Positions 22,212 to 54,897 of a DNA stretch of 64,000 bases are shown one piece after another; position 1 is the stretch's first letter; each line of letters starts with the position of its first letter. The stretch lies in assembly GCA_965261085.1 (NCBI GenBank), contig OZ253442.1:3712001-3776000 (forward strand), written 5' to 3'. The notes below the pieces were generated by a model. That model was given only the letters and a program-made list of their open reading frames with translations. It made no database searches and was not told the DNA's origin. This stretch comes from a bacterium (GTDB taxonomy: Bacteria > UBA8248). Made by a program: the position numbers and the translations under genes.

Positions 22212-22375
22212 TTCAGCACGCAATGAGCAATCTCGGACAATTATCAATAGCCACCTTAACAATGACGGGGAGAGTACTATGCTAGGAACCTATGAGGGAA
22301 ACAGAAATCTCTTTACCGAATTAGGCAGTTTACTCACGGGTTCCTGCTCTCCGAATTCACATGATTTTGCGGGTC

Positions 22376-22675
22376 CTACGCCGATCTGCCCGGTAAATCG
22401 GGCGCGACTTCGGAGATATTTCTGCTGATTTGTTTGATCTCCTCCTCTCGTCCGGTCCTTTCCATGTCTCGAATGATGGCCTGCGCGGTGAACATCGCCG
22501 AGCGCAACAGGTGGATTTCCGCTTCGATTCGTGGCCATTCTCGTCCCTCGATCGCCTCGAGCGCCGCCGAAATCATCAACCGGCTCGGGGAAATCCCCCG
22601 CTCATGTGCGGCTTTTTCGATCCGTCGCCAGTGGTCTTCATCAACTCGGATGTGCTTGTTGATGGTTTTTCCCAT
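22376..22675 (-). CDS. RHH relaxosome-accessory-like protein
   Basis: NKHIRVDEDHWRRIEKAAHERGISPSRLM RHH pattern; adjacent to putative oriT A. Confidence 0.75.
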   Translation of the reverse strand: MGKTINKHIRVDEDHWRRIEKAAHERGISPSRLMISAALEAIEGREWPRIEAEIHLLRSAMFTAQAIIRDMERTGREEEIKQISRNISEVAPDLPGRSA

Positions 22676-22883
22676 GCCGTTTTCCCCCGTTTTATCCTCT
22701 CAATCGTCGTTCATGTGAGATGGTTTCGGCACTCGCCGGTGCCTTCCGGAAGCCGAAACACTAGACGCGCACCGGTTTCCCGTGCCGGGTCACGCCGCTC
22801 GGTCACGTCCCTACGCATCCGTGTCCAGCGTTGTTTTTGCGACGCTGGCCGGGAGGAATCATATTTGCGCGCACCCCCGTCAC

Positions 22884-23103
22884 GTATGCTCATGGCATAC
22901 GCGCAGGAAATCCTCGTGTTACGCCGTATTGCAATGAGCATACGCACTTCCTGAAGTGAGGGGATTTCAACGGGATACAGGCGTATGCTCAGAGCATACG
23001 CTTGATCCAACAACAGGCGGGCGGTCTTTGTCGTCGTTGGCGCAGAACGCTGCATGCCAGGCGCGCGCATGGTCTGCACCTGCAGCCCGCTGCGTGGGGT
23101 GTG
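22884..23103 (+). other. Putative oriT A (MOBF/F-like nic site with GTATGC boxes)
   Basis: Boxes at 22884-22900, about 22926-22943 and 22983-22999; hairpin GCAGC-CC-GCTGC (23082-23093) running into TGCGTGGGGTGT^G (23091-23103), matching the F nic core as I recall it. Confidence 0.75.
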
Positions 23104-23444
23104 AAAACAGGAGCCGCCGAAGGGCGTCAAAAGGACCGAATTTGAGGAACAAACGATGGGGGAATCGAAGCCGGTGAGAGAGGCGGTCGGGAGCCGCCGC
23201 GGCGATTGAGTGGACGGAAGCGAACGGAGCAATGCGGGGAGGTGTGTACAGGGGTGTGTACACCAGTGCATGGAGTAGTGCCGGTGGTATGACCAGCCGG
23301 GTCTGCACCGCCGTGATGCGAAGTGGTGGGCGGTATGACCAGGGAGGTCACCACCGGTGCGGGTGCAAATGGTGCGAGCGGTGGTCAACGAGACAAACGA
23401 GCCGCGCCGCCGGGGTGGCGACGCGACCCGCCGGGTGGTGTGTC

Positions 23445-24365
23445 CTATGCGGCGACGCGCTGGACGGGGATGCCGAGGCTGCGGGCCTTGTCGACGAGGT
23501 TGTCGGTGATGCCGCTGCCGGGGAATGCGATGACGCCCTTGGGGAGCAGGGCCAGGAGTTCGTCGTTGCGCCTGAATGGAGCCGCCCGTCCGTGTGCGTC
23601 CCAGTCGGGCTTGCAGACGACCTGGTGGACGCCGTTCCGCTCCGCCCAGCCTGCCGCTATCTTCTCAGCCCCCGGACCGCCGCCGTGGACGAGCACCACG
23701 TCTGCGTACTTCGCTTTAAGCCTGTCGAGATGCCCGATGATGGCGCTCGCATCGTTCGCCTCCTTGCCGCCTGCGACGGCGACGAGGGTTCCCTGGGGGA
23801 GGTGCGCCGTGTTCTCGCGGTCCTTTCTCGCCCTCTGGAAGTCTCGCGCGTCGATCATGGCCGAGGTGAGCTTGCCGGTCTGCGAGGTGTGTGACCCTCG
23901 TCGTGGCCGCCAGACCTCGCCCGTCTCGACGCGGTAGGCCTCGGCTGCGGTGTCTCTCAGTTGTTCGAAGGCGTCTCTGCGGTTGCTCAGGTTCTGCGCC
24001 CGGTCGGTCTTGAGTTCGAGTTCGCGGGAGCGGATCTCCGATCCGTCCTGTTCGCGCTGCAGTTCGCGTATGCCGGGGAGGAGCCTGTCGGCGGCGCGGT
24101 CGAGGCGCTGTGTCTGTGCGTCGAGGGTGTTGACGAACCCCCAGAGGAGGTTCGCTCGCTCATCCGCAAGTTGTGTCCCGTCGGGCGCGGCCTGTGCGAG
24201 TAGGTGGAAGGCCTTGATGACGGCGGAGGAGGATTCGTTCTCGTCCCATACGACGCGGGAGTCGAACTCGTCGCGGCCCGGTGTAGCGCCGAAGAGCGCG
24301 GCCTGCTCGCAGACCATGGCGGTGAAGGACTGTTCCTGAGCTTCGATGGTGTGGATGTCGTTCAT
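23445..24365 (-). CDS. DUF2493 / YspA-like SLOG-domain protein, copy A
   Basis: LVAVAGG, VLVHGGGPGAEKIAAGWA, PDWDAHGRAAPFRRND, IAFPGSGITDNLVDKA; AAGGAG RBS. Confidence 0.85.
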   Translation of the reverse strand: MNDIHTIEAQEQSFTAMVCEQAALFGATPGRDEFDSRVVWDENESSSAVIKAFHLLAQAAPDGTQLADERANLLWGFVNTLDAQTQRLDRAADRLLPGIRELQREQDGSEIRSRELELKTDRAQNLSNRRDAFEQLRDTAAEAYRVETGEVWRPRRGSHTSQTGKLTSAMIDARDFQRARKDRENTAHLPQGTLVAVAGGKEANDASAIIGHLDRLKAKYADVVLVHGGGPGAEKIAAGWAERNGVHQVVCKPDWDAHGRAAPFRRNDELLALLPKGVIAFPGSGITDNLVDKARSLGIPVQRVAA

Positions 24366-24449
24366 GATTCTCTCCTTGAGAATAGAGTGTAGCGGAGTCT
24401 GTCTCCGCACGTGATGTGTCACGAGTCCCACGCGCGCGCAGGGAAGCCA

Positions 24450-24571
24450 CCATGGCCGCAAGGCCCGTCGCGGGGAGGGTGCGGGTGGTGCGGGCGCACA
24501 AGCGAGCGAAGCGAGCGCGGAGCCACGGCCGCGCTCTTCCCGCGACGGGGTTCCTGCCTTGCGAGCCATGG
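24450..24571. promoter_or_regulatory. Long stem-loop upstream of DUF2493 (candidate ssDNA promoter / ssi), copy A
   Basis: Arms CCATGGCCGCAAGGCCCGTCGCGG and CCGCGACGGGG-TTCCT-GCCTTGCGAGCCATGG with inner hairpin GAGCGCGG/CCGCGCTC. Confidence 0.55.
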
Positions 24572-24747
24572 CCGGAACGCAGTGGAGGACCCCGCAGGGG
24601 TTGGCGAAGCGAGCACGTGTGGGAAGATGGGACATCACGTCGGAAGAGTTAATGCCACAGATGGGAGCAGGTGAGCCTCTCTCGCATTCTTCCCGGGCGT
24701 TCACCCTTCTCGTCGACCAGCGAGAGCATTCCCTCTGGGTCGAAAGC

Positions 24748-24780
24748 AAAAAAACAGGCCGACGCGCGAGGCGCCGGCCC
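24748..24780 (-). terminator. Intrinsic terminator after ssb A
   Basis: GC-rich stem followed by a T-run on the minus strand. Confidence 0.6.
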
Positions 24781-24789
24781 GTTGTGAGG

Positions 24790-25248
24790 TTAGAAGGGGA
24801 TGTCGTCGCCGAGAGCCTCGGGCGCTCCGTTTACCGCCGCCCCGGCCATCACCATCTGCGGCGCCGCCGCAGTCTCGGGGTGCGCGCCGTTCCCGTTCAC
24901 CTTGTCGAGGAACTGCACGCGTCCGCCCGGCGCCAGGAGGATCTCGGTCGAGAACCGCTCCGATTCTTCCTCTTCCTTCTTCCAGCGCCTGGTCTGGAGC
25001 TTGCCCGCCACGTAGACCAGACGGCCTTTCTTCGCGTGCTTCTCGAACATGTCGACCAGCCCGGGCTGGAAGGTCACGACCCGGTGCCACTCGGTCTTCT
25101 CCACCCGCTCGCCGCTCTGCTTGTCGACGTAGCCCTCGTCGGTGGCGATGGAGAGGTTGGCGACGCGTCCGCCGTTCATGAGGTGGTTGATGGTGACGTC
25201 TGCGCCGAGACGCCCGATCAGTTCCGCGCGGTTGAGTCCGAATGCCAT
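24790..25248 (-). CDS. ssb: Single-stranded DNA-binding protein, copy A
   Basis: LNRAELIGRLGAD, KTEWHRVV, KGRLVYVAGKLQTRRW, C-terminal DDIPF. Confidence 0.95.
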   Translation of the reverse strand: MAFGLNRAELIGRLGADVTINHLMNGGRVANLSIATDEGYVDKQSGERVEKTEWHRVVTFQPGLVDMFEKHAKKGRLVYVAGKLQTRRWKKEEEESERFSTEILLAPGGRVQFLDKVNGNGAHPETAAAPQMVMAGAAVNGAPEALGDDIPF

Positions 25249-25326
25249 GGTGATTCTCCTTGTAGTGTGACGTGGATGACAGTTGATGGGACCGGGAATC
25301 CTCTCTCCCCGATCCCTCCGTTCGTC

Positions 25327-25473
25327 CTATACCCTGCTAAACTCCTCTCCTCCGGCCGCCTCGGGGTGGAGCGCCTCGCCGCGCAGCCTGCGGATCGTGT
25401 AGGAGTCGAGTCCGATCTCGGCGAGCAGTTCGTCACTGGTGAACATCTCGACGTCGTAGTCGTTCTCGTACAT
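25327..25473 (-). CDS. 48-aa acidic protein, copy A (not in ORF track)
   Basis: GAGGAGG RBS; MYENDYDVEMFTSDELLAEIGLDSYTIRRLRGEALHPEAAGGEEFSRV*; same length and frame as 50872-51018. Confidence 0.7.
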   Translation of the reverse strand: MYENDYDVEMFTSDELLAEIGLDSYTIRRLRGEALHPEAAGGEEFSRV

Positions 25474-25490
25474 GGTCCAGCCTCCTCATA

Positions 25491-25565
25491 GGTTGTCGTC
25501 CCCGGCGTCGGGACCGGGAGACCGTCTCCCTCTCCCTACCGGGCATTTGCCCGGCTCCCCGCTTC
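25491..25565. repeat. 75-bp hairpin-rich block identical (inverted) to 50780-50854
   Basis: Base-by-base identical; contains CCGGGCA-TT-TGCCCGG and GGGAGAC-C-GTCTCCC hairpins. Confidence 0.7.
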
Positions 25566-26026
25566 ACTCTTCCTCTACGAAGGGGGGCCGCGACCAGTGA
25601 CTGACCGCGCACGGACCGTGAACGGCCATGGTCCGGTTGTCCTCGATGGCGGAGATGTCCGGAGACACGCCTGGGTTTGCGCCTTGTTCGGGATTCGGGT
25701 CGCATGAGGAGTGGGCGAACGAAGACGTATCGAGAGGCGTGGGTCCCGGCGCCGGTTTTCATGAGGTTGCTGGTCGGGGTGTGGGCTTCGATGCTGTGGA
25801 CCTCGGCGGCATCGCCGATGGCGGGTTGCCCGAGGCTGTGCCTGCCGGGTCACTTCCGCGCTGCCTGGGTGCTCGTCCCCCCCCGGCCTGGATCCCCGGG
25901 TGGCAGATCACGCGGTGGAGCCGAGTCCGGAAGGCTCCAGGCCGGCTGCGCAGCAGGGCGGCGTAATCCTTCCCCCCGGCCAGACGCATGACGGCCGGCT
26001 GCACGTGCAGGGGCGGCCGCCGGCGC

Positions 26027-26839
26027 TCACCCCCAGGCGGTCATCGTCGCCATCGGCGATGCGTCGGTTATGATTTCGACCTCGTGGCGGGAGAGCTTTG
26101 CGAAGGCGAGGCACATGGCGACCTCCTCCCAGCTGTCCCAGGTCCCGTGCTCCTCGCCCGTGGCGAGTTCGACCACGGTATAGCGCGGGGGATAGAGGGG
26201 CATTCCGCGGTGCTCGCCCGAGCACGCATAGGAGCGGTATGCGCAGGGCTCGCACCTCGCGGTTCCCTGCGCGGGTTCTCCGCAGTCGGTGCAAAGCCCT
26301 TGCGCCCGTAGTCGTGCGTAGCGCCCCCGGCGGGCGGCGTTCCTCTTCTCCCGGTCCCGTCCGTTTCCGGGCGCGGCGCAGGAGCCGCAAAGCGAGGCGC
26401 CCGAGGCCGGCCCCCCGCAGCGTCCGCACAGGCCGGCGGCTCTCCGCGCGGCGTACAACTCCCGCTCGTCCGCGCGCCTCGCCTCGCGGCAGGGTTCACA
26501 GACGGCGCCGCCCTCTACGGGGAGACGGTTCCCGCAGGACGTACACATCCCGGCTTCGCGGCGTTCGCGCCTGCGCAACCTGTTCCTCTCCCGCGCCATC
26601 CGGCGGCGGCTCTCAGGCTCCCGGCCGCCGTAGGGCCTGCCTACGGTCTTTCCCTTCGCGTAGCGGGCGCGTTCGGAGGTCCGCCGTCTCTCGCGACAGG
26701 GTACACACACGCTGCGGCCGGGCGCGGGTCGGTGTTTCCCGCACCTGGGGCACAGGCCCCGCGCGCGGCGTTCGGCGGTGCGTTTGCGGTGACGTTCACG
26801 TTCATAGGCGCGGGCCTTCCCGGGGTCCATATGGGGCAT
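26027..26839 (-). CDS. Cys/Arg-rich protein with four CxxC...CxxC modules, copy A
   Basis: CPRC/CVPC, CTSC/CEPC, CGRC/CGSC, CTDC/CEPC; C-terminal YTVVELATGEEHGTWDSWEEVAMCL; conserved with 49330-50145. Confidence 0.8.
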   Translation of the reverse strand: MPHMDPGKARAYERERHRKRTAERRARGLCPRCGKHRPAPGRSVCVPCRERRRTSERARYAKGKTVGRPYGGREPESRRRMARERNRLRRRERREAGMCTSCGNRLPVEGGAVCEPCREARRADERELYAARRAAGLCGRCGGPASGASLCGSCAAPGNGRDREKRNAARRGRYARLRAQGLCTDCGEPAQGTARCEPCAYRSYACSGEHRGMPLYPPRYTVVELATGEEHGTWDSWEEVAMCLAFAKLSRHEVEIITDASPMATMTAWG

Positions 26840-26928
26840 ATTCGATCTCCTCCCTCCGGCAGTTAGAATACAGACGGCATCCGGTCGGCGCGTGGCCGGC
26901 GGGACGTCCCCCTGGGGGGAACTTCACC

Positions 26929-27240
26929 TCAGCGCTGCCTGCGTTCACCAAAAAGACCCGATGCTGCGTCCCCCCAGTACTGTACGCCCGAGGCCTCGAG
27001 GTTCAGGGCCGTGCAGACGATGATCTCATCGCGCGCAGGACGCATCTGCCGGACTGTTCTCCGCGAGGCGGTCTCGCGCTTCATCCCCCGCCGGCTCCTC
27101 CCCGCAGACCCCCCGGCGGGCAAGGGACGTATGTCGCCGTCGTCGATCGAGCGGAAGCGCTCGACGACGTATCGCTCGTCTTCGAGGCCACGGCCGAAGG
27201 TGTGGGTGAGGAAGGTGCTCGCTTCCCTGGTCTTTTGCAT
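26929..27240 (-). CDS. Hypothetical protein, copy A
   Basis: MQKTREASTFLTH...DEIIVCTALNLEASGVQYWG; AAGGAG RBS; conserved with 48925-49239. Confidence 0.7.
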   Translation of the reverse strand: MQKTREASTFLTHTFGRGLEDERYVVERFRSIDDGDIRPLPAGGSAGRSRRGMKRETASRRTVRQMRPARDEIIVCTALNLEASGVQYWGDAASGLFGERRQR

Positions 27241-27353
27241 CGGCAAGTCTCCTTGTTGTGGGTGGTTGCGTAAGGCAGAGAACACTCTCCCGGACGTCCT
27301 TCCGCCGCCCCCCTCCCGGCCAGACTCTGCCTCTCCGGGGCGCCGGGCGGGGA

Positions 27354-27686
27354 TCAGGGAGCCGGATCGTGGCCGTGAAGCTCCTGTTCCTCCTGGTCTC
27401 GGCGCCAGGCGTAGCGGCCGGTCCGGATCGCCCAGTCGAACCGCTCGCCGTTATCTTCGGGGAGTTCGTAGCGGTTGAGGCTGGACCAGTCCCCATGGCG
27501 GAACCCTCGCCACAGGACGCACGCGAGCGCCGTGAGGAGACTCCACAGCGCCGCACCGAACCAGACGCCGCCTATCAGGCAGGCGCCTGTCCCACAGCCA
27601 AGGGAGAAGACGGTGAAGAGAAGGGCGAGGGCGGGTCCCGCCAGGACGAAGACCCGGGCCGCAACGGATGGATTGTGGTTCGTCAT
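27354..27686 (-). CDS. Small two-TM membrane protein, copy A
   Basis: Two hydrophobic segments then GFRHGDWS...ERFDW...TGRYAWRRD; conserved with 48420-48761. Confidence 0.7.
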   Translation of the reverse strand: MTNHNPSVAARVFVLAGPALALLFTVFSLGCGTGACLIGGVWFGAALWSLLTALACVLWRGFRHGDWSSLNRYELPEDNGERFDWAIRTGRYAWRRDQEEQELHGHDPAP

Positions 27687-28080
27687 GCGTCGTTCCTCCG
27701 GGGTCGCGGGCAAAGGGCTCGCGGGTGTCGCCCGGCCTCTCCGGCCCAGGCTCCCGCGCCCACGCCGCCTCCCTTCTCGGCCTCCCGGCGAACCACCGCG
27801 GGGGCGCGTCGCCGGATGCGGTCCTGAGCGCACCGCCATGCCGATTTCTCTTGCGGTTTTCATGTGGGTATGTTCGAATCGGCGCGATTTCAACGGAACT
27901 GGAACGGCGGTACGCTGTACTCTGGCGAATGCAACCCATACCGGGCGGCCATTCGAGTGATGAGCGATCAGACGGACAAGGAGAAAGGCGATCCTTATTG
28001 GAACCACACGAGGGGCGCGGGGTCGCGGCCCGAACGAACCCTCCCTGCTCTCCCGATGCGGGCTCCTCTTCGCCGTCCTC

Positions 28081-28821: not shown

Positions 28822-28830
28822 GGTGGTGAT

Positions 28831-30249: not shown

Positions 30250-30423
30250 CTACAGCAGGTCTTCGGCTATGCTCGCGGCGACCCGCTCGGCGGACTCGCG
30301 CACCGAATCGCGCGCGAGATGCGCATAGCGTGAGGTGGTCTCGATCCGGGCGTGGCCCAGGAGTTTGCCTATCACGGTGAGTCCCTCGCCCAGCGCGAGA
30401 GCCCTCGAGGCAAACGAATGGCA
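30250..30423 (-). pseudogene. 3'-terminal fragment of a tyrosine integrase
   Basis: Translates CHSFASRALALGEGLTVIGKLLGHARIETTSRYAHLARDSVRESAERVAASIAEDLL*, homologous to the ends of both intact integrases. Confidence 0.8.
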
Positions 30424-30651
30424 CAGTTAATGTATAAAATCAGCCTGTTAGACATTGGTGCGAATGTCATGTCAATTATATGATAAATATATGTAATAAT
30501 TGATGTTGTATATTATTTTGCACCTTCTCCGCTCTTGCATCTGCGACAACAACAGACTAAAATAGCCATGGATTTGACCTCAGTCGGTTGCGGATTGATG
30601 ACGGTTTTGTAATCCGATCGGCAGCGCGAAGGACCGTATGGAGACATTCCC

Positions 30652-31830: not shown

Positions 31831-31842
31831 GGGAGAAGGGAT

Positions 31843-48419: not shown

Positions 48420-48761
48420 ATGACGAACCGCAATCCATCCGGTCTCACCCGGGCCCTCGTCCTGGCGGGACCCGCCCTCGCACTACTCGCCACGGTGTTC
48501 TGCCTCTTGACCGGGAACGGCGTCCGCTTCCTCCGTGACGTCTGGTTCGCTGCGGCCCTCTGGAGCTTCGTCACCGCGCTCGCGCACGTCCTGTGGCTGG
48601 GGTTCCGCCATGGGGACTGGTCCGCTTTCAATCGCCATGAACTCCCCGAAGGTGACGGCGAGCGGTTCGATTGGGCGACGAAGACCGGCCGCTACGCCTG
48701 GCGCCGCGACCTGGAAGAGCAGGAGCTTCACGGTCACGACCCGGGCGCCCCCTGCCCGTAG
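48420..48761 (+). CDS. Small two-TM membrane protein, copy B
   Basis: GGAGG RBS; paralog of 27354-27686. Confidence 0.72.
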   Translation: MTNRNPSGLTRALVLAGPALALLATVFCLLTGNGVRFLRDVWFAAALWSFVTALAHVLWLGFRHGDWSAFNRHELPEGDGERFDWATKTGRYAWRRDLEEQELHGHDPGAPCP

Positions 48762-48924
48762 AAGACCGCCGTCCCGCCGAACGCAGACCTGCAAACAACT
48801 ACCCTGCCGTCTCCCCCGCCGCGCCCTGCACCCTAAAGAGGTCGAGCCTGGCCGGGAGGGGGGCGGCGGAAGGGCGTCCGGGAGGATGTCCGCTTCTTTC
48901 AAACACCCACCAGGAGGAGACGAC

Positions 48925-49239
48925 ATGATGCAGACACCCAGGCGCGAGGCACACACATTCCTCACCCACCTGTTCGGTAGCGGCCTCGAAGACGAGCGCT
49001 ACGCCGTCGAGCGGTTCCGCTCGATGGACGACGGCGACATCCTTCCCCTGCCCGCCGGGGGGCGGACGAAGAGCGGGTGCGGGGCGAAGCGCGCGACCGC
49101 CTCCCGGAGAGCCGTGCGGCAGATGCGGCCCGCGCGGGACGAGATCATCGTCTGCACGGCCCTGAACCTCAAGGCCTCGGGCGTGCAGTATTGGGGCGCT
49201 CAGGCGACGGGTCTTTTTGGCGAACGCAGGCAGCGCTGA
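48925..49239 (+). CDS. Hypothetical protein, copy B
   Basis: AGGAGG RBS; paralog of 26929-27240. Confidence 0.7.
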   Translation: MMQTPRREAHTFLTHLFGSGLEDERYAVERFRSMDDGDILPLPAGGRTKSGCGAKRATASRRAVRQMRPARDEIIVCTALNLKASGVQYWGAQATGLFGERRQR

Positions 49240-49329
49240 GGTGAAGTCTCCACTACGGGGGACGTCCCGCCGGCCACGCGCCGGCCGGATGCCGTCTGTA
49301 TTCCAGCCACCGGAGGGAGGAGAACAAGC

Positions 49330-50145
49330 ATGCCCCATAAGGACCCCGGTAAGGCCCGCGCGTATGGGCGTGAGCGCCACCGCAAACGCGCCGCCGAACG
49401 CCTCACGCAGGGGCTGTGTCCCAAGTGCGGGAAGACCCCGCCCGCGGCCGGCCGCAAGGTGTGTGAGTCCTGCGGCGACAAGCGGCGGACCGCCGAACGC
49501 GCCCGCTACGCCAGGGGCAAGGCCGAAGGCAAGCCCTACGGCGGACGGAAGCCTGAGAGCCGCCGCCGGGCCGCGCGGGAGAGGAGCAAGCGGCGCCGAC
49601 ATGGACGCCGCGAGGCGGGCCTGTGCACGAGTTGTGGAGACACTCCTCCCGTAGAGGGCGGTGCCCTCTGTGAGACCTGCCGTGAAGCGCGGAGAGCGGA
49701 CGAGCGGGAACTCTACGCCGCGCGGAGAGCCGCCGGCCTGTGCGGGCGCTGCGGGGGGTCTGTCTTCGGGGGCGCCTCGCTCTGCGGCTCTTGCGCGGCC
49801 CTCGGGGACGGGCGCGACCAAAAGAGGCGTAACGCCGCCCGCCGGGGGCGTTACGCCAAAAGGCGAGCTCGATGCTTTTGCACCGACTGCGGAGAGCCCA
49901 CGCAGGGGACCGCGAGGTGTGAGCCCTGCGCATACCGTTCCTATGCCCGCTCAGGCGAGCACCGCGGCATGCCCCTCTACCCGCCGCGCTACACCGTGGT
50001 CGAACTCGCCACCGGCGAGGACCACGGGACATGGGACAGTTGGGAGGAGGTCGCCATGTGCCTCGCTTTCGCGAAGCTCTCGCGTGAGGAAGTCGAGGTG
50101 GTGACCGACGCATCCCCGATGACGACAATCACCGCCTGGGGGTGA
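49330..50145 (+). CDS. Cys/Arg-rich multi-zinc-ribbon protein, copy B
   Basis: Eight CxxC motifs; GGAGG RBS; paralog of 26027-26839. Confidence 0.8.
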   Translation: MPHKDPGKARAYGRERHRKRAAERLTQGLCPKCGKTPPAAGRKVCESCGDKRRTAERARYARGKAEGKPYGGRKPESRRRAARERSKRRRHGRREAGLCTSCGDTPPVEGGALCETCREARRADERELYAARRAAGLCGRCGGSVFGGASLCGSCAALGDGRDQKRRNAARRGRYAKRRARCFCTDCGEPTQGTARCEPCAYRSYARSGEHRGMPLYPPRYTVVELATGEDHGTWDSWEEVAMCLAFAKLSREEVEVVTDASPMTTITAWG

Positions 50146-50871: not shown

Positions 50872-51018
50872 ATGTATGAGAACGACTTCGACCCCGACAA
50901 CCTGACCGGTGACGAACTCCTCGCCGAGATCGGACTCGACGCGTACACGATCCGCAAGCTGCGCAGTGAGGCGCTCCCCACCGAGGCGGGAAGAGGAGAG
51001 GAGTTCAGTAGCGTATAG
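50872..51018 (+). CDS. 48-aa acidic protein, copy B (not in ORF track)
   Basis: GAGGAGG RBS; MYENDFDPDNLTGDELLAEIGLDAYTIRKLRSEALPTEAGRGEEFSSV*. Confidence 0.7.
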   Translation: MYENDFDPDNLTGDELLAEIGLDAYTIRKLRSEALPTEAGRGEEFSSV

Positions 51019-51096
51019 GGCGAACCGAGGGGCCGGGGAGAGAGGATTCCCGGTCCCATCAACTGTCATCCACGTCACACCACAAGGAGAATCACC

Positions 51097-51534
51097 ATGG
51101 CATTCGGACTCAACCGCGCGGAACTGATCGGGCGTCTCGGCGCAGACGTCACCATCAACCACCTCACGAGCGGCGGCCGCGTCGCCAACATCTCTATCGC
51201 CACCGATGAGGGCTACGTCGACAAGCAGACAGGCGATCGGGTCGACAAGACCGAGTGGCACCGGGTCGTGACCTTCCAGCCCGGGCTGGTCGACATGTTC
51301 GAGAAACACGCGAAGAAGGGCCGTCTGGTCTACGTGGCGGGCAAGCTGCAGACCAGGCGCTGGAAGAAGGACGAGGAGGACTCCGAACGCTTCTCCACCG
51401 AGATCCTCCTGGCGCCGGGCGGGCGCGTACAGTTCCTCGACAAGGTGAACGGGAACGACAACGGCAACGGCGCGAACCCCGAGGCGGCGGTGGCGGCGTC
51501 CGCAGGTGTAGTAGGGGAAGACATTCCATTCTGA
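51097..51534 (+). CDS. ssb: Single-stranded DNA-binding protein, copy B
   Basis: OB-fold motifs and EDIPF tail. Confidence 0.95.
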   Translation: MAFGLNRAELIGRLGADVTINHLTSGGRVANISIATDEGYVDKQTGDRVDKTEWHRVVTFQPGLVDMFEKHAKKGRLVYVAGKLQTRRWKKDEEDSERFSTEILLAPGGRVQFLDKVNGNDNGNGANPEAAVAASAGVVGEDIPF

Positions 51535-51574: not shown

Positions 51575-51599
51575 GCTCTCCATCCAGAGGAGGTCCGCC

Positions 51600-52604
51600 A
51601 TGCCCCAAACACCCTCTCCCGCGGCCGAAATCGCCGTGGCGCTCGCCTCGCGCGCCGAGGACGTCTGCCGCCGCTATCTGCCGCGGGGCAAAAAGCAGGG
51701 CCGCTACTGGGTTGCGGGTGATCTCGGTGGCGCGCCAGGACGCTCGCTCTTCGTCCGCCTCTACGGCCCGGGCCTGCCGGGCAAGTGGACCGACGCTGCC
51801 ACCGGAGAGCACGGCGACCTGCTCGACTTGATCCGCCGCCGAAGCGCCGCACCCACGCTCCGCGCGGCCATGGACGAAGCCCGCGCCTTCCTCGCACTGC
51901 CGGCTTCGCCGGCCCCGGGCGAGGGAGGGACGTACAACGCGACAGAAGCGGCGCGGCGCATCTGGCGGCGTTGCCGCACGGTCGACGCCGCCCCGGCCGA
52001 GGCCTATCTCCGCGCGCGGGGGATCACGCGGTACCGCTTCCCCTCCCTGCGCTTCCATCCGGCGCTCTTCCACCGGGAGGCCGACCGGCGTCTGCCCGCA
52101 CTGGTCGCCGCCGTGACCGACCCGGACGGCGCGCTTCACGGCGTACACCGCACCTGGATCGATCCCCGGACGTCCGCCAAGGCCGGCGTCCTCCCGTCCC
52201 GCAAGGCGCTCGGCAGCGTCTTCGGGCGCGCCGTGCGCTTCGGGGTTCCCGGCTCCACGCTCCTGGTCGGGGAGGGGGTCGAGACAGTGCTCTCGATCGT
52301 CACCGCCGCGCCCCGGGTCCCCGCGGCGGCAGCGCTATCCGCCGGGAGCCTCGGCGCCTTCGTCCCGCCCGAAGGGGTTTCTCGACTCATCATCGCACGG
52401 GACAACGACGCAGAGGGGGAACGAGCCGCAGAGCGTCTCGCCTGGCGCTGCGCCCGAGCCGGGTTAGCCACCCGCGTCATCGTCTCCGAACGCGGCGACT
52501 TCAACGACGACCTGCTCACCCTGGGGTCACGGCGACTCGGTCTCAGGCTCGCCGCCCTCCTCCCGCTGGTCGAGGAGACGACCACACGCGCCGGAGAGGG
52601 GTGA
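51600..52604 (+). CDS. Toprim-domain primase-like protein (DUF7146/Toprim_3 type)
   Basis: GKWTDAATGEHGDLLDLI, AEAYLRARGI, GVHRTW, LVGEGVET, IIARDND, DFNDDL; GAGGAGG RBS. Confidence 0.85.
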   Translation: MPQTPSPAAEIAVALASRAEDVCRRYLPRGKKQGRYWVAGDLGGAPGRSLFVRLYGPGLPGKWTDAATGEHGDLLDLIRRRSAAPTLRAAMDEARAFLALPASPAPGEGGTYNATEAARRIWRRCRTVDAAPAEAYLRARGITRYRFPSLRFHPALFHREADRRLPALVAAVTDPDGALHGVHRTWIDPRTSAKAGVLPSRKALGSVFGRAVRFGVPGSTLLVGEGVETVLSIVTAAPRVPAAAALSAGSLGAFVPPEGVSRLIIARDNDAEGERAAERLAWRCARAGLATRVIVSERGDFNDDLLTLGSRRLGLRLAALLPLVEETTTRAGEG

Positions 52605-52733
52605 ACACTTGAGATGGATGCGAGAGAGGCTCAACTGCTCCCATCTGTGGCATTAGCTCTTCCGTCGTGATGTCCCATCTTCCCACACGTGCTCGCTGCG
52701 CCAACCCCTGCGGGGTCCTCCTCTTCGTTCCGG

Positions 52734-52855
52734 CCATGGCTCGCAAGGCAGGAACCCCGTCGCGGTAAGAGCGCGGCCGTGGCTCCGCGCTCGCTTCGCT
52801 CGCTTGTGCGCCCGCACCACCCGCGCCCTCCCCGCGACGGGCCTTGCGGCCATGG
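52734..52855. promoter_or_regulatory. Long stem-loop upstream of DUF2493, copy B
   Basis: CCATGGCTCGCAAGGC..CCCGTCGCGG pairs with CCGCGACGGGCCTTGCGGCCATGG; near-identical to copy A. Confidence 0.55.
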
Positions 52856-52938
52856 TGGCTTTGCTGCGCGCGCGTGGATCGTATGGGAATCACGTTCGGA
52901 GACTGGCTCCGGCGTACTCATTCCACAAGGAGAGAATC

Positions 52939-53859
52939 ATGAACGACATCCACACCATCGAAACTCAGGAACAGTCCTTCACCGCCATGGTCTGCGAGCA
53001 GGCGGCGCTCTTCGGCGCTACACCGGGCCGCGACGAGTTCGACTCACGCGTCGTCTGGGACGAGAAGGAGGCCACCTCCGCCGTCATCAAGGCCTTCCAC
53101 GTACTCGCACAGGCCGCACCCGACGGGACGCAACTAGCGGATGAGCGCGCGAACCTCATGTGGGGCTTCGTCAACACCCTCGACGCACAGACACAGCGCC
53201 TCGACCGCGCAGCCGACAGGCTCATCCCCGGCATCCGCGAACTACAGCGCGAGCAGGACGGCTCCGAGATCCGCTCCCGCGAACTCGAACTCACCACCGA
53301 CCGCGCCCAGAATCTCTCCGACAGGCGTGACGCCTTCGAACAACTGAGAGACACGGCAGCCGAGGCCTACCGCACAGAGACCGGCGAGGTCTGGCGGCCT
53401 AGGCGAGGGTCACACGTCTCGCAGACCGGCAAGCTCACCTCGGCCATGGTCGACGCGCGCGACTTCCAGCGGGCGAGAAAGGACCGCGAGAACACCGCGC
53501 ACCTCCCCCAGGGAACACTCGTCGCCGTCGCAGGCGGCAAGGAGGCGAACGATGTGAGCGCCATCATCGGCCACCTCGACAAGCTCAAGGCCAAGTACAC
53601 AGACGTCGTTCTCGTCCACGGCGGCGGTCCGGGGGCGGAGAAGATAGCGGCAGGCTGGGCGGAGCGGAACGGCGTCCACCAGGTCGTCTGCAAGCCCGAC
53701 TGGGACGCTCACGGACGGGCCGCACCCTTCAGGCGTAACGACGACCTGCTCGCCCTCCTGCCCAAGGGCGTCATCGCGTTCCCAGGCTCGGGCATCACCG
53801 ACAACCTCGTCGACAAGGCCCGCAGCCTCGGCATCCCCGTCCAGCGCGTCGCCGCATAG
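52939..53859 (+). CDS. DUF2493 / YspA-like SLOG-domain protein, copy B
   Basis: Close paralog of 23445-24365. Confidence 0.85.
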   Translation: MNDIHTIETQEQSFTAMVCEQAALFGATPGRDEFDSRVVWDEKEATSAVIKAFHVLAQAAPDGTQLADERANLMWGFVNTLDAQTQRLDRAADRLIPGIRELQREQDGSEIRSRELELTTDRAQNLSDRRDAFEQLRDTAAEAYRTETGEVWRPRRGSHVSQTGKLTSAMVDARDFQRARKDRENTAHLPQGTLVAVAGGKEANDVSAIIGHLDKLKAKYTDVVLVHGGGPGAEKIAAGWAERNGVHQVVCKPDWDAHGRAAPFRRNDDLLALLPKGVIAFPGSGITDNLVDKARSLGIPVQRVAA

Positions 53860-54198: not shown

Positions 54199-54418
54199 CA
54201 CACCCCACGCATCTGAAGATGCTTGCTCCCCATGCGCGCGCCTGGCATGCAGCGTTCTGCGCCAACGACGACAAAGACCGCCCGCCTGTTGTTGGATCGA
54301 GCGTATGCTCTGAGCATACATCTGTATCCCATTGAAATCCCTGGGTTCCGCTCCGGGCGTATGCTCATGGCATACACTGAAAACAGGCTATTTCCTGCAA
54401 TGTATGCTATGAGCATAC
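54199..54418 (-). other. Putative oriT B
   Basis: Minus strand reads GCATCT-TC-AGATGC-GTGGGGTGT^G (54222-54199); boxes at 54303-54319, 54359-54375 and 54402-54418. Confidence 0.75.
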
Positions 54419-54591: not shown

Positions 54592-54897
54592 ATGCTGCAG
54601 ACGACACAAAAGAACATCAGAGTCACGCCGAAACAGTGGAAACGCGTCTAACAAGAGGCCGAAATAAGGAGTGTTTCAGCGAACAAACTCGTGGTCGAAC
54701 TCACGATGGAGGCCCTGGAGCGCCGAGAATGGCCGCACACCGAAGCGAAAATCCACCTGTTGCGCTCCGCGATGTTCGCCGCCCAGGCCATCATCCGCGA
54801 CATGGAGAAGGCAGGACGCGAGGAGGAGATTCAGCAAATCAGCAGGAATATCTCCGAAGTCGCACCTGAATTGCCGGTCCAATCGGCACGGGATTGA
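54592..54897 (+). pseudogene. RHH gene with premature stop, copy B
   Basis: MLQTTQKNIRVTPKQWKRV, TAA at 54649-54651, then in frame ...EWPHTEAKIHLLRSAMFAAQAIIRDME. Confidence 0.75.

What the first reader, a model, noticed from the sequence alone, without database searches (positions are those of the whole stretch)
23103..27686. Leading-region gene train of unknown proteins: candidate early-expressed anti-defence/establishment module
Seen: in both copies the conserved genes 3' of nic (DUF2493, Toprim, ssb, 48-aa ORF, Cys-rich ORF, two small ORFs) lie on the strand opposite the nicked strand and point toward oriT, separated by conserved hairpins. Known: leading regions have this geometry, use ssDNA promoters and are enriched in ssb and anti-defence genes. 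No ardA/ardC/psiB/klcA-type gene is recognisable. Inference: the unknown ORFs are candidate new anti-restriction, anti-CRISPR or anti-SOS factors.
Basis: partly seen in the sequence, partly recalled or inferred. Interest (0 to 1): 0.8.

Follow-up and report, generated by a model that had tools for sequence, protein, structure and literature searches.

The report
Leading region of a mobilizable element
These genes do lie in the part of an integrated, transferable DNA element that would enter a new cell first, and one of them sits behind a conserved DNA hairpin that looks like a promoter for incoming single-stranded DNA. Nothing tested shows that the unnamed genes disarm host defences.

Summary
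The observation mostly holds. The window carries two inverted, 80-96% identical copies of one module. Each copy has the F-plasmid nick sequence GCGTGGGGTGT|G on the strand opposite the genes, so the geometry is that of F's leading region.

From nic outward the genes are DUF2493 (a YAcAr SLOG protein), SSB, a 48-aa acidic protein, a protein with four zinc ribbons, a small basic protein and a 2-TM protein. All have dN/dS of 0.14-0.51. The Toprim primase is present only in copy 2.

The module belongs to a multi-copy family of MOBF integrative elements. An intact F-type ICE of the family lies elsewhere in this genome, and 79 related loci keep the same gene order.

New here is a covarying hairpin of about 270 nt directly upstream of DUF2493:
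- 62 pairs, 18 of them with compensatory changes.
- Next to DUF2493 in 79 of 83 occurrences.
- On the transferred strand it carries invariant TTGGCG-N13-TGn-xAxxAT boxes, placed so that transcription would run into DUF2493.

I read it as a candidate single-strand promoter with no similarity to Frpo.

No test links the unnamed ORFs to anti-defence. By published prediction, DUF2493 and its frequent neighbour DUF4326 are the better candidates. Earlier scan notes on other genomes described the same zinc-ribbon protein and a similar hairpin.

The parts
22376..22675 (-). Ribbon-helix-helix gene (99 aa) on the trailing side of oriT, transcribed away from nic. Likely a relaxosome accessory protein.
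   Evidence: Pfam NikA-like E 6e-5 and NCBIfam MobA E 0.0019, both below the curated cut-offs. dN/dS 0.21 for the C-terminal part shared with copy 2.
22880..23004 (.). Three copies of a GCGTATGCTC-type palindrome between nic and the RHH gene. Candidate binding sites for the accessory protein.
   Evidence: Inverted-repeat list and direct reading of the sequence. Copy 2 has the same repeats at 54300-54420. The function is inferred.
23041..23094 (+). Inverted repeat whose proximal arm ends 8 nt 5' of nic.
   Evidence: Arms 23041-23054 and 23081-23094, 79% complementary. Copy 2 instead has GCATC-TTCA-GATGC directly before the nick motif.
23092..23103 (+). nic motif GCGTGGGGTGT|G, with the predicted nick between 23102 and 23103. 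The + strand is the transferred strand of copy 1.
   Evidence: Exact 12-mer, twice in the window and once in the fetched F stretch, at F's oriT. F nick from passages of PMC2504302. Cleavage here was not tested.
23104..23230 (+). Non-coding block just 3' of nic, 95% identical between the two copies.
   Evidence...GCCGCCGAAGGGCG... and ...GGGAGCCGCCGCGGCG... are kept in all six copies in the genome.
23445..24365 (-). DUF2493 protein (306 aa): unknown N-terminal 190 aa plus a C-terminal YAcAr SLOG domain. It is the first gene after nic.
   Evidence: Pfam PF10686 E 1.4e-21, 76.4 bits against a cut-off of 28.2. dN/dS 0.14. Relatives on 735 plasmid records.
24380..24660 (+). Long imperfect hairpin of about 270 nt upstream of DUF2493. 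Candidate single-strand-DNA promoter on the transferred strand.
   Evidence: Folding z -3.8 on the T-strand and -5.3 on the sense strand. 62 pairs, 97.8% paired against 89.7% in shuffles, 18 compensatory pairs, 0 of 500 shuffles as good. Consensus energy -80.3 (T-strand) against -57.9 kcal/mol (sense).
24601..24628 (+). Promoter-like boxes on the gene-distal arm of the hairpin: TTGGCG, then 13 nt, then TGG, then GAAGAT.
   Evidence: The pattern occurs only at the two hairpins in the window, against 0.06 expected. TTGGCG, TG and positions 2, 5 and 6 of the second hexamer are invariant in 20 of 20 sequences. xAxxAT in 71 of 83 wider occurrences.
24753..24783 (-). Intrinsic terminator after ssb.
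   Evidence: 13-bp stem followed by TTTTTGCTTT.
24790..25248 (-). SSB (152 aa) with a C-terminal ...DDIPF tip.
   Evidence: Pfam SSB E 2.5e-24, TIGR00621 E 3.7e-27, dN/dS 0.21.
25327..25473 (-). 48-aa acidic protein (pI 4.2) directly upstream of ssb.
   Evidence: In 50 of 79 related loci. 38-row alignment with invariant L16 L17 E19 G21 L22 I27 R28. dN/dS 0.51. No family match.
25474..25580 (-). Near-invariant leader of about 100 nt with two small hairpins in front of the 48-aa ORF.
   Evidence: 38-sequence alignment. The pairs almost never vary, so there is no covariation.
26027..26839 (-). Zinc-ribbon array protein (270 aa, pI 10.0, 18 Cys): four CxxC...CxxC modules, each with a long helix, plus a small C-terminal alpha/beta domain.
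   Evidence: 879 homologues, none with an informative name. Invariant cysteines. AF2 pLDDT 85.1. No PDB match. dN/dS 0.25.
26929..27240 (-). Small basic protein (103 aa, pI 10.6).
   Evidence: 268 homologues, all unnamed. In 72 of 79 loci next to the Cys-rich gene. dN/dS 0.30. AF2 model poor, pLDDT 57.
27354..27686 (-). Membrane protein (110 aa) that reads as having two TM helices.
   Evidence: 135 homologues, unnamed. dN/dS 0.39. In the intact ICE a relative lies between the T4CP and TraG_N genes. The TM helices are read from the sequence; no predictor was run.
48420..50145 (+). Copy 2: 2-TM gene 48420-48761, small gene 48937-49239, Cys-rich gene 49330-50145.
50872..51534 (+). Copy 2: 48-aa ORF 50872-51018 and SSB 51097-51534.
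51597..52604 (+). Copy 2 only: Toprim primase-like gene (335 aa).
   Evidence: On the longer ORF 51255-52604: DUF7146 E 1.1e-31 and Toprim_3 E 4.9e-22. phrog_510 DNA primase E 6.5e-41.
52650..52925 (-). Copy 2 hairpin, with the promoter-like boxes at 52677-52704 on the - strand, which is the transferred strand of copy 2.
52939..53859 (+). Copy 2 DUF2493.
54199..54210 (-). Copy 2 nic motif GCGTGGGGTGT|G.
54691..54897 (+). Copy 2 RHH gene remnant. The N-terminal DNA-binding part is missing.

Best explanation
The finding covers the oriT-proximal 'leading' segment of a family of MOBF-type integrative mobilizable and conjugative elements. The window holds two diverged, inverted and partly decayed copies of it.

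A TrwC-family relaxase would nick at GCGTGGGGTGT|G. That site is 23102|23103 on the + strand in copy 1 and the mirror site in copy 2. The strand would then enter a recipient 5' end first, so the genes would arrive in this order: DUF2493, (primase), SSB, 48-aa protein, zinc-ribbon array, small basic protein, 2-TM protein. For all of them the transferred strand is the template.

Shown by sequence:
- the nick motif and its strand;
- the gene order and purifying selection on every ORF;
- the family-wide synteny;
- a covarying hairpin of about 270 nt in front of DUF2493.

Inferred:
- SSB and the primase serve handling of the incoming single strand and synthesis of its complement.
- The hairpin forms on the incoming strand. 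Its gene-distal arm supplies -35 and extended -10 boxes, and the host RNA polymerase starts near the base of the hairpin, about 45 nt before the DUF2493 start codon. DUF2493 would then be made before the DNA becomes double-stranded.
- DUF2493, often with DUF4326, acts on NAD+/ADP-ribose-type molecules, or binds the single strand as DprA does.
- The basic zinc-ribbon and small proteins bind the element's nucleic acid.
- The 2-TM protein may be an exclusion-type membrane protein.

An anti-defence role for the unnamed ORFs is possible but untested.
For: nic and oriT:
- nic motif and strand.
- oriT architecture conserved in all 6 copies in the genome.
- Motif on the same strand in 23 of 53 related DUF2493 flanks and on the other strand in 0 of 53.

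Element family:
- Intact relative in the same genome at 217-252 kb: two integrases, TrwC, T4CP, an F-type T4SS (TraG_N, TraH, TraF, TraN, TraU, TraC, TraV, TrbI, TraK_N, TraE, TraL), then strawberry-notch, Toprim, SSB, DUF2493, oriT and RHH.
- 79 related loci anchored on the Cys-rich gene: small gene in 72, SSB in 62, DUF2493 in 55, 48-aa ORF in 50, RHH1-like in 32, RHH0-like in 18, all in the same order and strand.
- A compact version carries two integrases and TrwC. I saw no ORF large enough for a T4SS there, and tblastn found no T4CP.
- dN/dS 0.14-0.51. SSB and primase assignments.

Hairpin:
- Covariation.
- Lower consensus energy on the transferred strand: -80.3 against -57.9 kcal/mol with RNA parameters, -28.2 against -13.2 with DNA parameters.
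- Transferred strand more stable in 55 of 55 non-redundant relatives, by 12.1 kcal/mol on average.
- Invariant TTGGCG, TG, A2, A5 and T6. In the consensus, five of the six -10 positions lie in an internal loop.
- The motif occurs only at the two hairpins in the window.
- 79 of 83 occurrences in 80 fetched loci lie next to DUF2493 on the expected side and strand, at a median 255 nt.
- Large hairpins are also predicted between the Toprim and DUF2493 genes on two plasmids of cultured strains, z -6.5 and -3.5.

Literature, passages seen:
- Leading genes are encoded so that the T-strand allows early transcription, and Frpo-type hairpin promoters drive them (PMC11541004; PMC9849209).
- New ssDNA promoter classes without sequence homology exist (PMC12672017).
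Against: - No expression, nicking or transfer data exist for this element.
- The promoter boxes match the consensus in only 4 of 6 positions at -35 and 3-4 of 6 at -10, plus TG. They fall below the 9-of-12 rule of the scan tool.
- The strand asymmetry is partly compositional. A control window inside the DUF2493 coding region also favours the same strand in 50 of 55 sequences, by 6.6 kcal/mol. Some wobble pairs work only on the sense strand, and copy 1 alone folds about equally well on both strands.
- My simple box search found no clear -35 and -10 boxes in F's own Frpo2 region, so the assumed geometry could not be calibrated on a known case.
- Both window copies lack an adjacent relaxase. Copy 1 has lost the primase and copy 2 has a truncated RHH gene, so these particular copies may no longer move.
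- The gene orientation could simply reflect operon structure in a 14-kb element.
Confidence: 0.62

Rival explanations
1. The unnamed ORFs (48-aa, zinc-ribbon, small and 2-TM) are new anti-restriction, anti-CRISPR or anti-SOS factors expressed early in the recipient.
For: They lie within 4.6 kb of nic with the transferred strand as template. Leading regions are enriched in anti-defence genes and in unnamed families (PMC11541004 passages). The 48-aa protein is small and acidic, pI 4.2. The host genome and the elements' own cargo are rich in defence systems such as CBASS and AbiE.
Against: No similarity to any anti-defence family in Pfam, NCBIfam or PHROGs, and no structural match for the Cys-rich protein. 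Two of the four are very basic and one is a membrane protein. The block is a fixed syntenic core, not a variable island. Apart from the near-invariant leader before the 48-aa ORF, which shows no covariation and no boxes, no hairpin or promoter-like element precedes these ORFs. The intact ICE of the same genome lacks the zinc-ribbon and small genes.
Confidence: 0.15
2. The hairpin upstream of DUF2493 is not a promoter. It could be a structured RNA, either a leader of the DUF2493 mRNA or an antisense RNA. It could also be a single-strand initiation site recognised by the neighbouring Toprim primase to prime complementary-strand synthesis.
For: The sense orientation also gives a covarying structure, with 59 pairs of which 18 are compensatory, and it has its own G-U pairs. 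All 10 loci of the first set with a true Toprim gene also have the hairpin. Toprim lies on the far side of the hairpin in 49 of 83 wider occurrences. Frpo itself was proposed to make primer RNA (PMC12672017 passage).
Against: Consensus energy favours the transferred strand by 22 kcal/mol with RNA parameters. The GU:11/UG:6/CG:3 pair in helix 7 can pair only on that strand. The invariant positions are those that matter for sigma-70 recognition, and the -10 box is in a loop on one arm only. The hairpin persists where Toprim is deleted, as in copy 1 and L016. No Rfam family matches.
Confidence: 0.3
3. The module is mainly a replication and maintenance unit of the excised element in the donor or host. 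That would be rolling-circle replication from oriT helped by SSB and primase. It would not be an early-expressed establishment unit, and the orientation would be incidental.
For: SSB and primase also suit autonomous replication. In the compact form all genes except the relaxase share one direction. The ssb operon ends in a normal terminator.
Against: The same polarity relative to nic as in F. The strand-specific hairpin with boxes that would point the wrong way in double-stranded DNA. The two roles do not exclude each other.
Confidence: 0.2
4. The nick assignment is wrong. The F-like 11-mer is a chance or relic match, and the true oriT lies elsewhere, for example next to the T4CP-TrwC genes at 3.3-9.2 kb.
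For: Cleavage is untested. Three of the six copies in the genome carry variants: TCGGGTGT twice and TTCCGGTGT once. 30 of 53 related flanks lack the strict motif.
Against: An exact 12-mer at the same place in both copies. It is embedded in the most conserved non-coding block, 95-96% identical. An inverted repeat lies 5' of it and an RHH gene lies beside it. The strand bias is strict, 23 against 0. A TrwC relaxase is encoded by the family.
Confidence: 0.07

Closest known systems
Leading region of plasmid F (oriT, ssbF, psiB; Frpo1 and Frpo2)
   Same: The nick sequence is identical over 12 nt, on the strand opposite the leading genes. An ssb gene is present. All leading genes point toward oriT. 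A large hairpin sits in front of a leading gene, with its base about 45 nt from the start codon in both F and this element.
   Different: This is an integrated element in an uncultured high-GC bacterium. It has no psiB, psiA, ardA or ParB gene. The first gene is DUF2493. The hairpin has no sequence similarity to the F leading region; the best blastn E-values are 0.3-0.6.
Class 1-3 single-strand-DNA promoters of pESBL, ColIb-P9 and F (PMC12672017)
   Same: A large stem-loop on the transferred strand upstream of a leading operon with reconstituted -35 and -10 boxes. That paper shows that classes without mutual sequence homology exist (passages).
   Different: Activity is unproven here. The boxes are weaker (TTGGCG and xAxxAT with TG). 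The hosts are Alphaproteobacteria and several other phyla of uncultured bacteria.
Toprim-DUF2493 gene pair of alphaproteobacterial conjugative plasmids (for example pCMU01 of Methylorubrum extorquens CM4 and plasmid Lpl of Novosphingobium sp. PP1Y)
   Same: Toprim is followed by DUF2493 at 46-48% identity. On pCMU01 the pair points toward the traC/traA region. The spacer of about 320 nt between the two genes is predicted to form a large hairpin.
   Different: Those plasmids are typed MOBQ or MOBP. They carry ParB and/or strawberry-notch genes upstream, and lack the zinc-ribbon, small and 48-aa genes. Their hairpins lack the TTGGCG...xAxxAT boxes, by my reading.
R388 (IncW, MOBF) oriT and trwABC
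   Same: A TrwC-family relaxase. An inverted repeat ends 8 nt before nic, and an RHH accessory gene lies beside oriT, transcribed away from it. The R388 layout is recalled, not checked here.
   Different: The nick sequence is F-like, not R388-like. In this family the relaxase gene lies on the far side of the leading region and on the other strand.
Viral YAcAr/YpsA-type SLOG and DUF4326 proteins (Iyer, Burroughs, Aravind and colleagues; PMC7824862, PMC9503650)
   Same: DUF2493 is Pfam YAcAr. A DUF4326 gene lies next to it in 41 of the 82 sequences searched (79 related loci plus 3 copies from this genome) and in 38 of 83 hairpin loci. This echoes the SLOG-DUF4326 fusions those papers report.
   Different: Here the genes are separate, sit on conjugative elements rather than viruses, and carry an extra 190-aa N-terminal region. 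The activity is only predicted in those papers.

Membership tests
Conjugative leading region (F-type geometry) | Lies directly 3' of nic on the transferred strand | tested here: met
   nic motif at 23092-23103 (+). The genes span 23445-27686. The nick position is taken from identity to F. Cleavage itself was not tested.
Conjugative leading region (F-type geometry) | Genes encoded so that the transferred strand is the template | tested here: met
   All six genes are on the strand opposite the nick motif in both copies. F has the same arrangement.
Conjugative leading region (F-type geometry) | Early, transient expression in the transconjugant | not testable with these tools
Conjugative leading region (F-type geometry) | Carries recognisable anti-defence or SOS-inhibitor genes (ardA, ardC, klcA, psiB) | tested here: not met
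   None among the 51 ORFs of 40 aa or more scanned against Pfam at E 0.01 or below.
Frpo/ssi-type single-strand-DNA promoter | Large, stable stem-loop on the transferred strand upstream of a leading gene | tested here: met
   Mean -86 kcal/mol with DNA parameters over 55 relatives.
Frpo/ssi-type single-strand-DNA promoter | Stem reconstitutes -35 and -10 boxes oriented toward the gene | tested here: inconclusive
   TTGGCG-N13-TGn-xAxxAT is invariant at the key positions, but it matches only 7-8 of 12 consensus positions. The geometry could not be calibrated on F.
Frpo/ssi-type single-strand-DNA promoter | Sequence homology to Frpo1, Frpo2 or ssi1-3 | tested here: not met
   blastn against 11 kb of the F leading region gives only chance hits, E 0.3 or more. 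ColIb-P9 and pESBL sequences were not compared.
Frpo/ssi-type single-strand-DNA promoter | Active as single strand, silent as duplex | not testable with these tools
   Needs in vitro transcription or transconjugant RNA-seq.
MOBF oriT | nic core of the F type, GGGGTGT|G | tested here: met
MOBF oriT | Inverted repeat 5' of nic and an accessory DNA-binding protein gene beside it | tested here: met
   The RHH gene has weak NikA/MobA-like matches.
MOBF oriT | Cognate TrwC/TraI-family relaxase | tested here: met
   TrwC domain E 1.2e-85 at window 6153-9179, in the intact ICE and in 23 of 79 related loci. The relaxase is not adjacent to either window copy.
SSB (PF00436) | OB-fold SSB domain above the Pfam cut-off, and an acidic C-terminal tip | tested here: met
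   85.8 bits against a cut-off of 26. The sequence ends ...GDDIPF.
YAcAr SLOG (PF10686, DUF2493) | Domain match above the Pfam gathering score | tested here: met
   76.4 bits against 28.2 for copy 1, and 78.3 bits for copy 2. No solved relative by sequence.
Integrative mobilizable element (IME) | Integrase, relaxase and oriT without its own T4SS | tested here: inconclusive
   The compact relative L053 fits. It has two ORFs at the positions of the integrase matches, a 964-aa ORF at the TrwC match, the leading genes and RHH. I saw no ORF large enough for a T4SS, and tblastn found no T4CP. The window copies lack an adjacent relaxase. Copy 2 has two integrases at 30652-33060 and copy 1 only an integrase remnant at about 30250-30435. 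att sites were not mapped.

The most novel reading that the evidence does not exclude
The DUF2493-associated hairpin is a new class of single-strand-DNA promoter that spans several phyla. It fires on the incoming transferred strand of MOBF and related elements far from the Enterobacteria. It switches on a SLOG protein, often together with DUF4326, that neutralises NAD+/ADP-ribose-based immunity. The zinc-ribbon array, the small basic protein and the 48-aa acidic protein are further establishment or counter-defence factors of a highly proliferative mobilizable element.
Probability: 0.25. Interest if true: 0.8.

Novelty: new variant of a known kind. Interest (0 to 1): 0.55.

Why it matters
Leading regions and their single-strand promoters have been worked out almost entirely in enterobacterial IncF and IncI plasmids.

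This locus gives a leading region that can be predicted from sequence, because its nick site is identical to F's. It belongs to an element family that has multiplied to many copies per genome in uncultured bacteria of several phyla.

The locus also offers a concrete cis element to test: a hairpin with strong covariation and promoter-like boxes on one strand only. If that hairpin is a single-strand promoter, early expression from incoming DNA would extend beyond the known classes and hosts. DUF2493, present on 735 plasmid records in the searched collection, would then be marked as an 'earliest-expressed' function worth characterising.

The report also narrows the anti-defence search. The evidence points more to DUF2493 and DUF4326, and perhaps to the 48-aa acidic protein, than to the basic zinc-ribbon and small proteins.

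Tried and rejected
- **Structure of the Cys-rich protein.** The AF2 model has pLDDT 85 and pTM 0.41. Foldseek against PDB gave nothing at E 0.001 or better (best 0.88). VIA-align wide gave a best Z of 3.8. The ESM Atlas gave only its own kind and generic double-zinc-ribbon clusters.
- **Profile search with 72 Cys-rich relatives.** It returned 5634 representatives. Of 20 longer hits scanned against Pfam, 16 had no family. The other 4 carried integrase, transposase, LolA-like or DruA parts, which I read as read-through into inserted elements.
- **Small protein.** The AF2 model was too poor to search with, pLDDT 57.
- **48-aa protein with SSB.** One complex prediction returned 'no answer'. This is no evidence either way.
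- **RNA runs.** No RNA holder was listed for 23000-28000.
- **Rfam.** No match at gathering thresholds over the window, and none at E 1 or below over 22300-28200.
- **Solved structures by sequence.** None for DUF2493 or the primase.
- **Near-identical DNA in the plasmid collection.** None.
- **Hidden conserved ORF in the 560-880-nt spacer between the Cys-rich and 48-aa genes.** Clustering was swamped by low-complexity high-GC frames and gave no family-wide ORF. Only the last 100 nt or so, and a block just after the Cys-rich gene, are widely conserved.
- **Calibrating the promoter geometry on F's Frpo2 region.** The hairpin is reproduced (z -6.4), but neither the scan tool nor my box search found clear boxes.
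- **MAFFT alignment of 56 diverse hairpins.** It was too poor for a consensus fold, so I used single-sequence energies instead. The shuffle-based z-score version timed out.
- **An R388-like nick on the gene strand, CACTT-CAGG-AAGTG-CGTATGCTC.** I considered and dropped it. It is one of three palindromic repeats present on both strands, and the F-type motif fits better.
- **Literature.** A full-text search for 'DUF2493' listed 5 papers, and judging by their titles and abstract openings none concerns conjugation. The supplements of PMC11541004 hold no 'DUF2493' or 'Toprim' entry. One PDF supplement there could not be read.

Full report
**What is in the window.**
Base composition is a mosaic. Blocks of 66-72% GC alternate with blocks of 43-55% GC. 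A repeat search found one large inverted duplication. Window 22380-28826 matches 47158-54887 in 19 blocks of 77-96% identity.

ORF lists and Pfam scans give the gene content of copy 1, all on the - strand:
- a ribbon-helix-helix gene, 22376-22675;
- a non-coding stretch, 22676-23444;
- DUF2493 (Pfam YAcAr SLOG), 23445-24365;
- SSB, 24790-25248;
- a 48-aa ORF, 25327-25473;
- a Cys-rich ORF, 26027-26839;
- a 103-aa ORF, 26929-27240;
- a 110-aa ORF that reads as a two-helix membrane protein, 27354-27686.

Copy 2 has the same order on the + strand. It also has a Toprim gene at 51597-52604, between ssb and DUF2493. That gene is primase-like, with phrog_510 at E 6.5e-41. Copy 1 lacks it because of a deletion of about 960 nt.

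A Nei-Gojobori comparison of the two copies gives dN/dS of 0.14 (DUF2493), 0.21 (SSB), 0.51 (48-aa), 0.25 (Cys-rich), 0.30 (small) and 0.39 (2-TM). All six ORFs are therefore real genes under purifying selection. The value for the 48-aa ORF rests on few sites.

**The nick site.**
The + strand of copy 1 reads ...GCTGCGTGGGGTGT|GAAAAC... at 23089-23108. The 12-mer GCGTGGGGTGTG occurs exactly twice in the window, at 23092-23103 (+) and 54199-54210 (-). In each copy that is the strand opposite the genes.

In the 14 kb of the F plasmid record that I fetched, the same 12-mer occurs once. It lies between gene X and traM, on the strand opposite traM and the leading genes ssb and psiB. Passages of Hekman et al. 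2008 give the F nick as 5'-TTTGCGTGGGGTGT^GGT (PMC2504302).

The surroundings fit a MOBF oriT:
- An inverted repeat ends 8 nt 5' of the predicted nick.
- Three GCGTATGCTC-type palindromes and the RHH gene lie further 5' on that strand.
- The 130 nt 3' of nic are the best-conserved stretch of the whole module, 95-96% identical between the copies.

All six copies of this region in the 4.27-Mb chromosome align here. They keep TGGGGTGT (three copies), TCGGGTGT (two) or TTCCGGTGT (one) at the same column. In the related loci described below, 23 of 53 DUF2493 3' flanks carry T[G/C]GGGTGT on this strand, at a median 277 nt from the stop codon, and 0 of 53 carry it on the other strand.

The finding's coordinates run exactly from that nick to the start codon of the 2-TM gene. 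Cleavage itself is untested.

**What element this is.**
The window is chromosomal. A tblastn map of the genome shows an intact relative at 217-252 kb. Its order is:
- two tyrosine integrases;
- TrwC relaxase and the T4CP on one strand;
- a 2-TM gene;
- a complete F-type T4SS (TraG_N, TraH, TraF, TraN, TraU, TraC, TraV, TrbI, TraK_N, TraE, TraL);
- on the other strand, strawberry-notch, Toprim, a partial 48-aa ORF, SSB, DUF2493, the oriT-like region and RHH.

So the family includes a MOBF/MPF-F ICE in which DUF2493, SSB and the primase occupy the same place next to oriT.

The Cys-rich and small genes occur in only three of the six copies: the two in the window and one at 1.13 Mb. A scan of one genome per species, using the Cys-rich protein, returned 79 loci, the best kept of 156 confirmed. 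They come from metagenome-assembled genomes labelled Alphaproteobacteria, 'bacterium', Nitrospinota and Gammaproteobacteria, and one genome contributes nine of them.

Within 9 kb of the anchor gene the order 2-TM, small, Cys-rich, 48-aa, SSB, DUF2493, RHH is kept. The counts out of 79 are: small gene 72, SSB 62, DUF2493 55, 48-aa ORF 50, RHH1-like 32, RHH0-like 18, 2-TM 27, integrases 37-38, and TrwC on the opposite strand 23. Some loci are short contigs, so these are lower bounds.

A compact form, L053, carries the following:
- two ORFs at the positions of the integrase matches;
- a 964-aa ORF at the TrwC match;
- the leading genes and RHH.

I saw no ORF large enough for a T4SS, and tblastn found no T4CP. 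That is the layout of an integrative mobilizable element.

In the window, copy 2 belongs to an element that runs from two integrases (30652-33060), through 14 kb of low-GC cargo, to a truncated RHH gene. Copy 1 keeps only an integrase remnant at about 30250-30435 and has an outer-membrane-protein gene where relatives have the relaxase. Both copies may therefore be immobile today, or depend on the TrwC and T4CP at 4156-9179 and on a T4SS elsewhere.

**The unnamed proteins.**
None matches a family in Pfam, NCBIfam or PHROGs beyond a sub-threshold double-zinc-ribbon hit. Taking together, a Pfam scan of every ORF of 40 aa or more on both strands of 23103-27686 (51 ORFs) found no ArdA, ArdC, KlcA, PsiB or similar family.

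- **Cys-rich protein.** It has 879 homologues, all unnamed or called hypothetical. A profile search found 5634 representatives. Alignments show four to six repeats of a CxxC...CxxC zinc ribbon, each followed by an arginine-rich helix, plus a conserved C-terminal domain of about 60 aa. The AF2 model agrees, at pLDDT 85, but matches no solved structure.
- **Small protein.** It has 268 homologues, all unnamed, and its AF2 model is poor, pLDDT 57.
- **2-TM protein.** It has 135 homologues, all unnamed.
- **Charge.** The Cys-rich and small proteins are very basic, pI 10.0 and 10.6. The 48-aa protein is acidic, pI 4.2.

My inference is that the two basic proteins bind nucleic acid. The 2-TM protein lies between the T4CP and TraG_N genes in the intact ICE, where F has its exclusion genes as I recall it. 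It may therefore be an exclusion-type protein. These are inferences, not results. Nothing ties any of these proteins to anti-restriction, anti-CRISPR or anti-SOS activity.

**The hairpin in front of DUF2493.**
The 424-nt spacer upstream of DUF2493 in copy 1 folds far better than shuffled sequence, with z -3.8 on the transferred strand and -5.3 on the sense strand. Its core is 94% identical between the copies. BLAST found the same element at 71-84% identity in a further 17 or so sequences of the related loci.

A 20-sequence alignment gave a long imperfect hairpin with strong covariation. On the transferred-strand orientation there are 62 pairs. 97.8% of cells are paired, against 89.7% in shuffles. 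18 pairs show changes on both sides, against 10.5 in shuffles. None of 500 shuffles did as well on any measure, and slid controls gave 31-47% pairing.

*Which strand folds?*
- For the transferred strand: the consensus energy is lower there, -80.3 against -57.9 kcal/mol with RNA parameters and -28.2 against -13.2 with DNA parameters, on exact mirror alignments. One helix contains pairs such as GU:11/UG:6/CG:3 that can form only on that strand.
- Against: the sense orientation has its own wobble-only pairs.
- Wider set: in 55 non-redundant relatives the transferred strand is more stable in 55 of 55, by 12.1 kcal/mol on average.
- Control: a window inside the DUF2493 coding region favours the same strand in 50 of 55, by 6.6 kcal/mol, so about half of the effect is compositional.

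The evidence leans toward the transferred strand but does not settle it.

*Promoter-like boxes.* On the gene-distal arm of the transferred strand all 20 sequences read TTGGCG, 13 nt, TG, one base, then a hexamer with invariant A2, A5 and T6. The hexamer is GACAAT in 12, CACAAT in 3, GAAGAT in the 2 window copies, GACGAT in 2 and CATGAT in 1. In the consensus structure, five of the six -10 positions fall in an 8-nt internal loop.

The full pattern occurs in the window only at the two hairpins, 24601-24628 (+) and 52677-52704 (-), against 0.06 expected. Read from loop to base, these boxes would place a start site at the base of the hairpin, near 24410. That leaves a 45-nt leader with the ribosome-binding site before the DUF2493 start codon. 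In double-stranded DNA the same boxes would point away from DUF2493, into the ssb terminator.

This geometry is my inference. I could not calibrate it on F. F's Frpo2 region upstream of ssbF reproduces a large hairpin (z -6.4) whose base is 46 nt from the start codon. My box search found nothing clear there.

*Wider distribution.* A collection scan with the arm motif returned at least 119 stretches. They come from genomes labelled Alpha- and Gammaproteobacteria, Thermodesulfobacteriota, Binatia, Gemmatimonadetes and others. In the 80 loci fetched, 79 of 83 occurrences have DUF2493 on the expected side and strand, at a median 255 nt. 71 of 83 keep xAxxAT. The TG is part of the search pattern and so is not independent there.

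Two plasmids of cultured strains also have spacers of about 320 nt between the Toprim and DUF2493 genes that fold into large hairpins, z -6.5 and -3.5. I saw no matching boxes in them. The hairpin has no similarity to F's leading region or to any Rfam family.

Published work shows that such hairpin promoters drive early leading-gene expression in F and pESBL, and that classes without sequence homology exist (passages of PMC9849209; PMC12672017; PMC11541004). I read this hairpin as a candidate new class of single-strand promoter, with about even odds. An RNA element or a primase recognition site are the alternatives.

**Other non-coding features.**
- ssb is followed by a strong intrinsic terminator.
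- The 100 nt or so before the 48-aa ORF are nearly invariant across 38 sequences and contain two small hairpins, but show no covariation and no promoter-like boxes.
- The three short spacers fold no better than shuffled sequence. The long spacer between the Cys-rich and 48-aa genes is not significantly structured either.

**What DUF2493 may do.**
It is the first gene after nic and the only one with a dedicated hairpin. Pfam places its C-terminal domain in the YAcAr SLOG family.

A DUF4326 gene lies beside it in 41 of the 82 sequences searched (79 related loci plus three copies from this genome). It also does so in four of this genome's six copies and in 38 of 83 hairpin occurrences.

Passages of two comparative papers predict that YAcAr-type SLOG domains use or process NAD+/ADP-ribose derivatives. 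[quoted passage not shown] The same superfamily includes the single-strand-binding protein DprA.

Either role would suit the first protein made from an incoming strand. Neither is shown.

**Verdict.**
The claim that the unnamed ORFs are anti-defence factors remains a guess. The more testable lead is the hairpin together with DUF2493.

Earlier notes of this scan, made on other genomes, described the same zinc-ribbon array protein in a leading region (e1-778536) and a Toprim-DUF2493 module with an undescribed hairpin (e1-4130677). My results agree with both, and I checked them only in part.

A full-text search for 'DUF2493' listed five papers. Judging by their titles and abstract openings, none concerns conjugation. 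The supplements of PMC11541004 that could be read contain no DUF2493 or Toprim entry, and one PDF supplement was unreadable.

Noticed in passing
window 12408-15694: A CBASS-like set in low-GC cargo downstream of copy 1's RHH gene. It comprises a CD-NTase-like gene (DncV-like NTFase/SMODS), a 242-aa ORF with no family match, and a SAVED domain fused to a 2TM effector.
   Followed up: no
window 16130-17757 and 59883-61546: Two AbiEi/AbiEii pairs, one in the cargo next to each copy. In both elements the cargo with defence genes sits just beyond the RHH gene. That is the last part to be transferred.
   Followed up: no
window 33000-47100: The cargo of the copy 2 element lies between its integrases and the leading genes. 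It holds an rve transposase fragment, an AbiJ_NTD3 protein (35206-36600), a 1737-aa protein with weak STAND/helicase P-loop matches (38508-43721), an AAA_21 ATPase with a partner ORF (44406-46308), and a transposase fragment.
   Followed up: no
window 55238-59332: A 1364-aa protein with weak matches to a Cap4-type nuclease domain at the N-terminus and to an AAA ATPase. It may be a defence gene.
   Followed up: no
window 2087-10482; genome 1156164-1164559: The block S24 peptidase, 256-aa ORF, T4CP, TrwC and RHH-like ORF has a second copy 2.5 Mb away in inverted orientation. All five proteins are 100% identical at protein level. This is either a very recent duplication or an assembly issue.
   Followed up: no
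window 50261-50635 (- strand): In copy 2 the spacer between the Cys-rich and 48-aa genes holds an opposite-strand ORF of 124 aa that reads as hydrophobic and has no Pfam match. The matching DNA is shared by about 20-32 related loci but is absent from copy 1.
   Followed up: partly
window 30652-33060; genome 217365, 1091943, 2394199, 3811554: Tyrosine integrases come in tandem pairs, 55% identical to each other, at every element end in this genome.
   Followed up: no
window 28081-30003 and 47163-47933: An outer-membrane beta-barrel gene, with a 390-aa ORF of unknown function beside it in copy 1, lies divergent from the 2-TM gene, where relatives carry the relaxase. Locus L020 has the same arrangement.
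   Followed up: no
L016-L094 (related loci): The Cys-rich gene family occurs many times per genome. One chromosome, OZ241875.1, contributes nine of the 79 loci. Some 'longer' family members appear to be gene calls reading into inserted integrase or transposase genes, so these elements seem to be frequent insertion targets.
   Followed up: partly
window 3325-3471 (- strand): A short RHH-like match (51% over 49 aa to the copy 1 RHH protein) lies upstream of the T4CP gene and overlaps the start of the 256-aa ORF on the other strand. It may be a remnant of another oriT region.
   Followed up: no
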